UHGV virus genome: UHGV-0150678 | Length of the DNA: 39,693 nt | Strand: one strand, 5' to 3' | Source of the DNA: a virus | Part shown: piece by piece, positions 1 to 2,834 of the stretch | Layout of the letters: each line of letters opens with the position of its first letter | Position numbering within the stretch: the stretch's first letter is position 1 | Made by a program: the position numbers

Positions 1-2834
1 TTATTAATCTGGTGAAGTTTTTCCTCTGTCATTACGTCATGGTCGATTTCAATTTCTATTGATGCTTTCCAGTCGTAATCAATGATGTATTTTTTGATGT
101 TTGACATCTGTTCATATCCTCATAGATAAAAAACTGCCCTCACACTGGAGGGCAAAGAAGATTTCCAATAATCAGAACAAGTCGGCTCCTGTTTAGTTAC
201 GAGCGACATTGCTCACATAGCAGACTCGCAAATCTGCTATAGGTGCTTATTCGCATCGCATGACAACATCAAATTTTTTGAGATTACTTTGTCGCAACAA
301 TCCCTCTTCTACGCGGTCAGCTTTTCTATAATTATCAAATTCGAAATGTTTAATTACTTCTTTCGTTTCTCGCTCTATAACTTCAACGATGTATTTCTTA
401 TTCATTACTCATCACCTATGGCTTTTTTGATAGCTTCGCGAGCCTTATTAACAGCCCCATACCATTCTGGATATGTTGTCGTTGTTCTATTTTCGGCTTG
501 CTTAAGTAATAACTGAAGTGCTTCAAGTAAATCCGGTGCAGCCATAGCTAATCTTCCATTTGCTACGGCCTCTTCTGTTTCTTTACCGGATAGGGCCATT
601 CCCGGGTGTGAAAATAAAATTAAGCCTGCAAATTGGCTTCTCGCCAATTTTTTCCTAGTACCTTTAAATTCCATGTTAGCCTCTGTTGTTTATGCCAAAA
701 GAAGGCCGACTATGCGGCCTGTGATGTTAGATTTACTTTCATTTTTGAACGGCAGCTACAATTATGATGGAATGTACAAAACCACTTTCCAGTTCATAGA
801 AGTGGATGATGGCATAAAATAATCCCACGACTCGTTAGCTACTAACTCTTTATTAACTGTGGTGGCAGCAATTTCGGCACCACCTTTATTATTAAAAATG
901 TCGTTCGAATACTGACATTTTCCATCTGCATGCACATATAAAATATCATATGTCTCTGTATCGTAATCACCACTTATGTCTCTGATAACAATTCCTGGCT
1001 TCAATGATTTAATTTTCTTGTCCATATATCACCTCAAATAAGTGGTTTGCAGCCTAATTTCATTTTCTGGCGACCAACACAAGTCAACCCCATTTCACTA
1101 CGTGGCTTGCTGTACCATGTGCGCTGATTCTTGCGCTCAATACGTTGCAGGTTGCTTTCAATCTGTTCGTGGTATTCAGCCAGCACTGTAAGGTCTATCG
1201 GATTCAGTGCGCTTTCTACTCGTGATTTCGGTTTGCGATTCAGCGAGAGAATAGGGCGGTTAACTGGTTTTGCGCTTACCCCAACCAACAGGGGATTTGC
1301 TGCTTTCCATTGAGCCTGTTTCTCTGCGCGACGTTCGCGGCGGCGTGTTTGTGCATCCATCTGGATTCTCCTGTCAGTTAGCTTTGGTTGTGTGTGGGAG
1401 TCGTAGTCCTGAACGAAAACACCCCGCGATTGGCACATTGGCAGCTAATCCGGATTCGCACTTCCGGCCAATGCTTCGTTTCGTATCACACACACCAAAG
1501 CCTTCTGCTTTGAATGCTACCCTTCTTCAGGGCTTAATTTTTAAGAGCGTCACCTTCATGGTGGTCAGTGCGTCCTGCTGATGTGCTTAGTATCACCGCC
1601 AGTGGTATTTATGTCAACACCGCCAGAGATAATTTATCACCGCAGATGGTTATCTGTATGTTTTTTATATAGATTTATTTTTTGCAGGGTTGTGTGGATT
1701 GGGAAGGTGATCGAGAGATCTGAATTGCGATGTTTAGTGAGTTGTATCTATTAATTTTGAAATAAATACAATTGGTTATGCGTTTTTTGGGGGCGTTAGG
1801 CAAAGAAAACCCGGCGCAGATGCCGGGTTGTGGTGGAGATCAATGCTTATTTGGGAGTGCTGGTTTTTTTATCGACTCTAATAGCTCGGAGGCGTTACTA
1901 ATCTTTTTGTTCCCAAGGTAATTTGGCAGTTTTTCCATTGCGTAATTATCGTGTAGCCATTTTCTGAACACGCCAAGTGCCTCAATAGGATAAATCCAAG
2001 CTGTTATATGCTTATTTGCAGCTGACTGCCTGTAATTTTCGGGGAATAAATGTGGGTACTGCACCCTTTCCCCGAATTTCTCAGATAGCCCATTAGCTGT
2101 CCAATACTTTCCCCAGTGAATTCCAACACTTCCATCCAAAGATGTGGTGTCATCCATTGGGAATCCTCCTCCGATCAGGTTCATGGCAATGTCAGCTATC
2201 TCTCTGAATACTGCAAAATGAGTTGTCGGTATCTGATCGTTTAGCTTAATCCTTGCTCTATAGTTCTCGAATGAGATATCTATTGAAGCATTTGGGTTGT
2301 AATTTGACTTTTCATAAATCATTCGCTTAAGCGTGTACTCAGCCAAGCGAACAAAATTACCTATTGCGACTGACCTATCAAAATTGGTGGCATCTAGAGC
2401 GTAGTAACGGAGGATAGCCATGCAAACATAGTCAGGATAAGCATGAGTTTCCACGTTTGAGCTATTTAAAACGCGAGTGTATAGCTTTTCGACGTTATGA
2501 AACCCTTTCTCAGCTAAATACGCAGCTACTTTTTGACCTCTGGGTTTGTTTTTCTCTGTGTTCCAGTTTGATGTGAACACCCTCAGTGGCGTGTCATCAA
2601 TGCCGCATAACTTTGCGAGACCGTAGAGAGTTAGGTAAGGAGTTCCATCATTGAGAACGCCCATAGGAATATCATCAGAAACAACCTCTACTACAGGGAA
2701 AAGCTGCATTTGATGCAGGGATTCGCTATTGCTGTTAATCGACATATCTTAATGATTTCCTTATTTTTATTGTAGGGATCTTCTTTTTTATTTCCTACAT
2801 CTAGATGCGTATAAAGTCTCTTGCTGCGGACTCA

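What the first reader, a model, noticed from the sequence alone, without database searches (positions are those of the whole stretch)
1800..2831. rexAB slot occupied by a single 301-aa gene: candidate prophage-encoded defence
Sequence matches lambda (as I recall it) through the 3' end of cI and again from the tIMM-like terminator into OL/pL, but the interval that holds rexA-rexB in lambda is replaced by one 301-aa ORF with a good SD. Genes co-transcribed with the repressor in this slot are characteristically exclusion or abortive-infection functions. Position, size and a KilA-N-like N-terminal region are reminiscent of the BstA family found directly downstream of repressors in P22-like prophages. 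I cannot confirm that homology without a search. A 6-bp perfect inverted repeat (CTGCAT-TTG-ATGCAG, 2704-2718) sits in the first codons; this could occur by chance and is weak evidence for any self-immunity element.
Basis: partly seen in the sequence, partly recalled or inferred. Interest (0 to 1): 0.75.

Follow-up and report, generated by a model that had tools for sequence, protein, structure and literature searches.

The report
Known BstA defence gene replacing rexAB
The only new point is a likely location for its still unmapped self-immunity DNA element.

Summary
Lambda homology stops exactly at the cI stop codon (window 2832) and resumes in the tIMM terminator (1829). The 1002 bp in between hold one 301-aa ORF (1840..2745, minus strand).

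The ORF matches BstA profiles over its full length (PADLOC E=1.3e-105, PHROG 6287 E=6e-133). The three primers that Owen et al. 2021 used to clone and sequence bstA-Ec from E. coli NCTC10963 match the window exactly, at 2808-2831, 1780-1801 and 2626-2649. This is therefore the locus type they showed to give phage defence plus cognate self-immunity (aba). The protein equals the phage CL707 'hypothetical protein' (2007) and RefSeq's 'BstA C-terminal domain-containing protein'.

What I add: in 121 non-redundant bstA loci, direct repeats 56-57 bp apart flank the start codon, and their sequence co-varies within each locus. This is the geometry of the only mapped aba, in phage BTP1. In the window the copies are ATCCCTACA (2779..2771) and ATCCCTGCA (2722..2714). 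That places a candidate aba-Ec at about 2714..2780.

Novelty: already known. Interest: low to moderate.

The parts
1840..2745 (-). bstA (BstA-Ec type), 301 aa, an abortive-infection defence protein
   Evidence: ORF. PADLOC BstA E=1.3e-105 over residues 8-286. PHROG 6287 'BstA abortive infection system, replication inhibitor' E=6e-133 over residues 5-301. 100% identical to CL707 ABO40695.1. RefSeq WP_000026554.1 is named 'BstA C-terminal domain-containing protein'. 42.1% global identity to BstA-BTP1.
2832..3545 (-). Lambda-type cI repressor, the upstream gene in the presumed pRM/pRE operon
   Evidence: ORF. 235/237 residues identical to lambda cI. Annotated as cI in CL707.
2746..2831 (-). cI-bstA intergenic spacer (86 bp) with no terminator-like or promoter-like site on this strand
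   Evidence: Consensus scan. Lambda homology ends at 2832.
2714..2780 (-). Candidate anti-BstA (aba-Ec) self-immunity DNA element spanning the start codon (inferred)
   Evidence: Geometry matches the 63-bp BTP1 aba, which runs from -29 to +34 with terminal direct repeats (Owen 2021). The family-wide 56/57-bp repeat pair is shown. The interval lies inside the 1780..2831 fragment that conferred cognate immunity on P22.
2771..2779 (-). Upstream direct-repeat copy ATCCCTACA (preceded by G at 2780, giving GATC), at -34..-26 from the ATG
   Evidence: 'GAtc' at -35..-32 is one of only two conserved non-coding blocks in 21 clade members.
2714..2722 (-). Downstream direct-repeat copy ATCCCTGCA, at +23..+31 (codons 8-11), 57 bp from the upstream copy
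   Evidence: It lies in the part of the ORF that encodes the tail predicted to be disordered (residues 1-12, pLDDT <50).
2753..2762 (-). Conserved AAGGAAATCA block, either the Shine-Dalgarno region or the internal part of aba
   Evidence: Conserved across the clade. Present as AAGGAAAATCA inside the BTP1 aba.
2704..2718 (.). It is real but judged a chance or coding by-product (codons L-H-Q-M-Q).
1808..1829 (-). tIMM-like intrinsic terminator ending the cI-bstA transcript. Lambda homology resumes here.
   Evidence: 8-pair stem, 6 of them GC, followed by a T-rich tail. Annotated as Timm in CL707. Homology boundary.
1589..1617 (-). pL promoter within the OL operators (context, lambda-identical module)
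   Evidence: TTGACA-17-GATACT. CL707 annotation.

Best explanation
**What it is.** The interval is a bstA-aba cassette. It is the E. coli 'BstA-Ec' type that Owen et al. 2021 characterised, and it occupies the cI-to-tIMM accessory slot of a lambda-immunity region carried here by a P22-like phage.

**Shown for the family and for this locus type in the literature.**
- The prophage makes BstA constitutively.
- When a susceptible foreign phage infects, BstA gathers at the replicating phage DNA and blocks its replication. The infection aborts at the cost of the infected cell.
- A short DNA element in the bstA locus (aba) suppresses only the cognate BstA, so the induced prophage can still replicate. 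In BTP1, where it was mapped, aba overlaps the 5' end of the gene.

**Inferred here.**
- bstA is read through from cI (promoters pRM/pRE) and terminated at tIMM.
- aba-Ec is the roughly 66-bp segment 2714..2780. Its active parts are two direct copies of ATCCCT(A/G)CA, 57 bp apart, flanking the start codon.
- BstA, probably through its N-terminal DNA-binding domain, recognises these copies. Amplified own-genome copies would then neutralise the protein.
- Specificity is inherited as one 5' cassette: both repeat copies plus the N-terminal tail and the first part of the protein.
For: - **Family membership.** BstA profiles match at full length. PF26567 (named 'BstA-like C-terminal domain' in the UniRef entries) is precomputed on 114 of the 116 homologues found (name).
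- **Published locus.** Primers NW_761/764, NW_762/763/765 and NW_790 for bstA-Ec match the window exactly at 2808-2831, 1780-1801 and 2626-2649. The NW_764 x NW_765 fragment moved into P22 gave immunity specific to BstA-Ec, and expressing BstA-Ec gave defence. CP024289, listed in their Table S1, is 99.4% identical in DNA.
- **Operon layout.**
- **Spacing of the repeats.** In 121 non-redundant loci the self-repeat score peaks only at spacings of 56 and 57 bp. 25 and 15 loci score >=7 there, against about 1.5 per other spacing.
- **Controls.** 70/121 loci score >=6, against 39/436 control ORF starts. 40/121 score >=7, against 2.35/121 in shuffles.
- **Position.** 66 of those 70 pairs flank the start codon. 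The distance to the ATG varies, but the spacing does not.
- **Co-variation.** The two halves match better within a locus than between loci (z = 10, 0 of 5000 permutations reach the observed value).
- **Clade footprint.** In the window's clade the only conserved non-coding blocks are the upstream repeat core and AAGGAAATCA.
- **Natural allele swap.** Loci L089-L091 also lie after a lambda-type cI. Their proteins are 100% identical to the window's at residues 101-301, 88% at 21-100 and 30% at 1-20. Both repeat copies changed together, to GATCTCAG / GATCGCAG.
- **Disordered tail.** The downstream copy lies in a tail predicted to be disordered.
Against: - No experiment was done on this window.
- Identity to the NCTC10963 allele rests on primer sites and on a 99.4%-identical listed homologue. 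The strain's own sequence was not compared.
- aba-Ec has never been mapped. The window's repeat alone is weak: 8 of 9 matches, a score of 6.5, and 9% of control gene starts reach >=6. The placement therefore rests on the family comparison.
- 51 of 121 loci show no pair at the score threshold.
- L092 and L103 have non-matching copies.
- The pairs are as common in loci without a cI-like gene directly upstream (47/76) as in loci with one (23/45). That fits a role wider than prophage self-immunity.
- How BstA blocks replication, and whether it binds aba directly, remains unknown (Owen 2021 discussion).
Confidence: 0.9

Rival explanations
1. The paired 56/57-bp direct repeats are mainly an autoregulatory operator. 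BstA binds them around its own ribosome-binding site and start codon to set its own level. The published 'aba' effect of high-copy DNA would then be simple titration of the protein through that operator. This does not exclude the best explanation. It changes what the repeats are for.
For: The repeats bracket the SD and ATG in 66 of 70 loci. They are as frequent in loci without a cI-like gene directly upstream (47/76) as in loci with one (23/45). Owen et al. found that a single chromosomal copy does not suppress BstA while a high-copy plasmid does.
Against: The distance from the repeats to the ATG varies by tens of bp while the spacing between them is fixed, which is odd for a device that occludes the RBS or promoter. 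Here bstA appears to be driven from the distant cI promoters, with no promoter-like site nearby. In BTP1 the element is needed for prophage induction at native BstA levels (legend of Figure 5E).
Confidence: 0.25
2. The ORF is a KilA-N/Bro-N-type regulator, such as an antirepressor or DNA-binding accessory protein of the phage's own life cycle. It would have no defence role in this phage, and its resemblance to BstA would reflect only shared domains.
For: The N-terminal domain shows weak fold similarity to proteins named KilA, KilA-N, Bro-N and antirepressor and to APSES DNA-binding domains.
Against: Homology to BstA runs the full length, including the family-specific C-terminal domain. The locus boundaries coincide with the tested bstA-Ec construct. 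The gene sits in the lysogenically expressed immunity operon, not in an early lytic operon.
Confidence: 0.03
3. The 6-bp inverted repeat at 2704..2718 is the self-immunity element or an attenuator, as the first reader tentatively suggested.
For: It lies near the 5' end of the gene, overlaps the last bases of the downstream repeat copy, and was picked up as a weak terminator-like hairpin followed by a T-rich run.
Against: It is not conserved in close relatives. The window holds 3.4 such repeats per kb. Folding is no better than shuffles (z = -0.7). The validated BTP1 aba folds worse than its shuffles (z = +1.4 and +1.7). BTP1 aba function depends on direct repeats, not inverted ones.
Confidence: 0.03

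Closest known systems
BstA-Ec / aba-Ec of E. coli NCTC10963 (Owen et al. 2021, Cell Host Microbe, PMC8585504)
   Same: The flanks are the same: all three published primers match exactly. The position directly after a repressor gene is the same; in the window that gene is a lambda-type cI. Identity to BstA-BTP1 is about the same (42.1% here, 41.7% reported). A homologue listed in their Table S1 (CP024289) is 99.4% identical in DNA.
   Different: Nothing demonstrable. The NCTC10963 sequence itself was not available for a residue-by-residue check. The surrounding phage is a P22-like mosaic (CUS-3-like), whereas other carriers such as ECO3183 have lambda O/P.
BstA-BTP1 / aba-BTP1 (Salmonella prophage BTP1)
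   Same: Full-length homologue. It lies downstream of the repressor and is followed by a terminator. Direct repeats flank the start codon at almost the same spacing (56 bp in BTP1, 57 bp here). An internal AAGGAAA(A)TCA block is shared.
   Different: Only 42% amino-acid identity. The repeat sequence is CCCGCC in BTP1 and ATCCCT here. aba elements are cognate and not interchangeable.
Lambda RexA/RexB
   Same: Same slot (between cI and tIMM) and the same lysogenic transcription unit. Both are abortive-infection exclusion functions.
   Different: There is no sequence similarity. RexAB is a two-protein sensor and membrane-channel system. BstA is one cytoplasmic protein that co-localises with phage DNA and has a DNA-based self-immunity element.
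Phage CL707 immunity region (GenBank EF120459, Degnan et al. 2007)
   Same: 99.4% DNA identity over window 1500..3900, and an identical 301-aa protein.
   Different: The gene is annotated there only as a hypothetical protein. CL707 carries an IS10 further left that the window lacks.

Membership tests
BstA abortive-infection family | Full-length sequence homology to BstA profiles | tested here: met
   PADLOC PDLC02356 E=1.3e-105, residues 8-286 against profile positions 4-281 of 292. PHROG 6287 E=6e-133, residues 5-301. 42.5% identity to BTP1 BstA over 99% of the length.
BstA abortive-infection family | Two-domain build: an N-terminal KilA-N-like DNA-binding domain plus the BstA C-terminal domain | tested here: inconclusive
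BstA abortive-infection family | Lies directly downstream of the prophage repressor on the same strand and is followed by a terminator | tested here: met
   cI at 2832..3545(-), bstA at 1840..2745(-), an 86-bp gap with no terminator-like site, and a terminator at 1829..1808. 45 of 121 non-redundant family loci have a cI/LexA-like gene directly upstream.
BstA abortive-infection family | Cognate aba DNA element overlapping the 5' end of the gene, with terminal direct repeats | tested here: met
   Met for the sequence signature only: ATCCCTACA and ATCCCTGCA 57 bp apart, flanking the ATG. This matches the BTP1 geometry and a family-wide 56/57-bp pattern. Function cannot be tested here. Owen 2021 showed that the fragment between the primer sites at 1780 and 2831 carries a cognate aba.
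BstA abortive-infection family | Abortive infection with inhibition of phage DNA replication | not testable with these tools
   Reported for BstA-Ec expressed in Salmonella LT2 and E. coli MG1655. There are no data on this window's own copy.
Lambda RexAB exclusion system | rexA and rexB genes between cI and tIMM | tested here: not met
   Lambda homology is absent from 1830..2831. The interval holds one ORF with a BstA profile and no Rex match.
KilA-N domain proteins (Pfam PF04383) | Significant match to the KilA-N sequence profile | tested here: not met
   Pfam hmmscan gave no family at E<=1 for the whole protein, nor at E<=10 for the N-terminal half. Only weak fold-level resemblance was found. 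Owen 2021 report the similarity from remote-homology methods.

The most novel reading that the evidence does not exclude
The anti-BstA self-immunity element has been mapped only in BTP1. It may instead be a conserved, family-wide architecture: two direct copies of a 9-14-bp site with the family consensus ~TTGGTCACCACC (ATCCCT(A/G)CA in this E. coli type), held exactly 56-57 bp apart across the start codon. The site sequence co-varies with the protein's 5' end. In nature it is exchanged together with the disordered N-terminal tail as one specificity cassette. That would predict aba-Ec at window 2714..2780. It would also give a rule for reading cognate BstA-aba pairs, and possible cross-immunity groups, directly from sequence.
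Probability: 0.6. Interest if true: 0.5.

Novelty: already known. Interest (0 to 1): 0.3.

Why it matters
As a finding it confirms known biology. The cI-to-N accessory slot of lambdoid prophages holds interchangeable abortive-infection modules, and this one is the published BstA-Ec. It is useful for annotation: RefSeq still names many copies 'hypothetical protein', and the protein occurs on 645 contigs in the collection.

The comparative by-product may help the open question that Owen et al. state themselves, namely how aba DNA is recognised and how cognate specificity is encoded. It offers a concrete, mutable pair of sites with a fixed spacing, and natural allele swaps to test.

Tried and rejected
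- **Pfam and NCBIfam.** Scans of the ORF returned nothing. This is a gap in the Pfam library, not evidence against membership, because the founding BstA-BTP1 also gives 0 Pfam hits in the local copy.
- **Hairpin or cruciform idea for aba.** Rejected.
- **Minor repeat peaks at 27 and 87 bp**. These are clade-specific coding or start-context repeats and not a third aba copy.
- **Extra copies of the repeat.** ATCCCT[AG]CA occurs at only two other places in the 39.7-kb window, 19558(+) and 32434(-). I do not interpret them.
- **Later literature.** Searches for later work that maps aba or solves a BstA structure found none in the held library.
- **EM motif register.** The EM search chose a doubtful register for BTP1 itself. 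I rely on the spacing statistics, not on the position weight matrix.

Full report
**1. Observation**

The window carries a lambda immunity region on the minus strand: cI at 2832..3545, cro at 3646..3846 on the plus strand, and pL/OL at about 1589..1617.

A local blastn against lambda NC_001416 gives two matches:
- Window 2832..3967 matches lambda 37227..38362 at 98.7%. Homology begins exactly at the cI stop codon.
- Window 1200..1829 matches lambda 35200..35826 at 94.1%. Homology ends in the stem of a tIMM-like terminator (1829..1808).

The 1002 bp in between (1830..2831) replace the 1400 bp that hold rexB-rexA in lambda. They contain one 301-aa ORF (1840..2745, minus strand). cI differs from lambda cI at two residues.

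However:
- Perfect 6-bp inverted repeats occur 3.4 times per kb in this window.
- This one is degraded in relatives whose proteins are 93-95% identical.
- The region folds no better than shuffles.

**2. What it is**

The ORF matches the BstA profile of PADLOC (E=1.3e-105, residues 8-286) and PHROG 6287 'BstA abortive infection system, replication inhibitor' (E=6e-133, residues 5-301).

Pfam and NCBIfam gave nothing. For Pfam this is a library gap: BstA-BTP1 itself gives no hit in the local copy, while PF26567 ('BstA-like C-terminal domain') is precomputed on 114 of the 116 homologues found.

The protein is 100% identical to the 'hypothetical protein' CL70704 of phage CL707 (EF120459). That immunity region is 99.4% identical to window 1500..3900. 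The exact protein occurs on 645 contigs of the public collection. RefSeq names it WP_000026554.1, 'BstA C-terminal domain-containing protein'. Of 5426 complete E. coli genomes, 33 carry at least 80% of the interval, 10 of them at 99% identity or more.

**3. It is the published locus**

Owen et al. 2021 (PMC8585504) described BstA in prophage BTP1 and tested two homologues. One of these was bstA-Ec from E. coli NCTC10963.

Their Table S2 primers match the window exactly:

| Primer(s) | Sequence (3' part) | Window position |
|---|---|---|
| NW_761 / NW_764 | GTCCGCAGCAAGAGACTTTATACG | 2808-2831 (-), directly after the cI stop |
| NW_762 / NW_763 / NW_765 | GCGTTTTTTGGGGGCGTTAGGC | 1780-1801 (+), just past the terminator |
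| NW_790 | sequencing primer | 2626-2649 (+) |

The fragment they cloned therefore corresponds to window 1780..2831, which is almost exactly the finding's interval.

- Expressed in Salmonella LT2, that fragment gave phage defence comparable to BstA-BTP1.
- Moved into P22, it made P22 immune to BstA-Ec only, which shows that it carries a cognate aba.
- Their Table S1 also lists CP024289, which matches the window at 99.4%.
- Global identity of the window protein to BstA-BTP1 is 42.1%, against 41.7% reported for BstA-Ec.
- Their discussion explicitly notes that this is the rexAB slot and cites Degnan 2007.
- Hochhauser et al. 2023 (PMC10121019) counted ten BstA-carrying lambda-like prophages in E. 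coli.

The finding is correct and already known.

**4. How it works**

*Established in the literature:*
- The lysogen makes BstA constitutively.
- On infection by a sensitive phage, BstA forms foci with the phage DNA. Phage DNA replication fails, the cell is lost and the epidemic stops.
- The prophage escapes its own BstA through aba. In BTP1 this is a 63-bp DNA element from -29 to +34 around the start codon. It acts as DNA and works in trans only at high copy.
- BTP1 aba needs its terminal CCCGCC direct repeats, and it is specific for its own BstA.

*Inferred for this window:*
- bstA is transcribed by read-through from cI. The gap is 86 bp with no promoter-like or terminator-like site on that strand, and a strong terminator follows right after the stop codon.
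- The AF2 model (pLDDT 83.6, pTM 0.52) shows residues 1-12 disordered and a confidence dip around residues 150-170.
- No solved relative exists.

**5. Where aba-Ec probably is (new analysis)**

aba was mapped only in BTP1. The paper and its supplements mention no repeats in other loci.

I fetched 160 related loci plus BTP1, assigned start codons and reduced them to 121 non-redundant 5' regions.

*Spacing.* Scoring each region against itself at every spacing from 12 to 119 bp gives one sharp peak, at 56 and 57 bp. 25 and 15 loci score >=7 there, against about 1.5 per other spacing.

*Controls:*

| Set | Score >=6 at 56/57 bp | Score >=7 at 56/57 bp |
|---|---|---|
| bstA loci | 70/121 | 40/121 |
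| Other ORF starts in the same loci | 39/436 | 19/436 |
| Shuffles | - | 2.35/121 (mean), 8 (maximum) |

*Position.* In 66 of the 70 loci the two copies flank the start codon. The upstream copy sits anywhere from about -55 to -8 while the spacing stays fixed. The constraint is therefore on the DNA, not on the peptide.

*Sequence.* The repeat differs between clades: CCCGCC in BTP1, GGTCACCACC, GAGCACC, CGGCCACCCC, TAGGCCCA and others. The two halves of a locus match each other better than halves taken from different loci (z = 10, 0 of 5000 permutations). An EM search for paired sites gives a loose family consensus of ~TTGGTCACCACC.

*The window.* The copies are ATCCCTACA (2779..2771) and ATCCCTGCA (2722..2714), 57 bp apart.

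*Clade footprint.* In the window's own clade (21 loci, 52-100% protein identity) the region aligns without gaps on the ATG. The only conserved non-coding positions are the core of the upstream copy (GAtc at -35..-32) and AAGGAAATCA (-17..-8). The downstream copy (ggATCcC) lies at +21..+27.

*Secondary structure.* Neither the BTP1 aba nor the window segment has more single-strand structure than shuffles.

I therefore place a candidate aba-Ec at 2714..2780. This is an inference from comparison. The window's own repeat would not be significant in isolation.

**6. A natural specificity swap**

A second E. coli allele (L089-L091) also lies after a lambda-type cI. It is probably the 94%-identical group seen in 23 complete genomes, whose match stops at window 2692.

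| Protein residues | Identity to the window protein |
|---|---|
| 101-301 | 100% |
| 21-100 | 88% |
| 1-20 | 30% |

Both repeat copies changed together, to GATCTCAG / GATCGCAG. This fits a model in which aba and the protein's 5' end travel as one cassette.

**7. Caveats and rivals**

- The repeat pairs are as common in loci without a cI-like gene directly upstream (47/76) as in loci with one (23/45). They may also, or instead, serve as an autoregulatory operator.
- Two loci (L092, L103) have non-matching copies.
- 51 of 121 loci fall below the score threshold.
- The related loci are not phylogenetically independent, although the repeat sequences differ between clades.

**8. Verdict**

It is already known. 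Interest is low to moderate, lifted slightly by a testable prediction for the unmapped aba-Ec and by a family-wide rule for aba.

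Noticed in passing
window 2777-2780 and 2719-2722; loci L003-L126 at -35 and +22 from the ATG: In the enterobacterial BstA clade the conserved core of both repeat copies is GATC, a Dam methylation site. The window has GATC upstream but AATC downstream. The BTP1 aba has no GATC. 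A possible link to replication or hemimethylation sensing is untested.
   Followed up: partly
L089-L091 (IMG/VR contigs); E. coli genomes H49-H63 (match to window 1782..2692 only): There is a second E. coli bstA allele in the same lambda-cI context. Its 3' 600 nt are identical to the window, but the 5' cassette is replaced: both repeat copies and the N-terminal 20 residues.
   Followed up: partly
L092 and L103, -37 and +20 from the ATG: The upstream copy (GATCGGGGTC) and the downstream copy (GATCCCTAC) do not match beyond GATC. These may be recombinants with a mismatched or inactive aba, or the recognition rule may be looser than exact repetition.
   Followed up: no
L012, L013, L015, L134, L146, L154, L157, L158, L160: -9..+3 and +78..+90: The start-codon context GGAATTCA(A/T)ATG recurs 87 bp downstream, at the conserved internal Met of the IPMG motif. 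This could be an alternative internal start or just clade-specific sequence.
   Followed up: no
window 1-39693: The window looks like a complete P22-like (CUS-3 / Kapi1-like) genome carrying a lambda immunity module: N, cI, cro, cII, an O-like initiator, a DnaB-type helicase, tailspike (27844-30789), integrase (31889-33082, minus strand) and a RecT-like protein (37793-38695, minus strand). The same immunity-plus-bstA module sits in a different mosaic, with lambda O/P, in E. coli ECO3183.
   Followed up: partly
window 1034-1438 (-): The N antiterminator ORF is listed as 134 aa, but the profile match covers residues 24-133. The real start is probably an internal ATG, as in lambda N.
   Followed up: no
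tool libraries: The local Pfam-A copy lacks the BstA C-terminal model PF26567, which is precomputed on the homologues. A 'no Pfam hit' result for this family therefore carries no information.
   Followed up: yes
L037, L038, L054 upstream ORFs: Several alphaproteobacterial and Akkermansia bstA loci have, directly upstream, an ORF starting ...YFERNRWNGEVSCLHCGS... It looks like a zinc-ribbon transposase N-terminus (recognised from memory, not tested). These are non-prophage contexts that still keep the 56-bp repeat pair.
   Followed up: no
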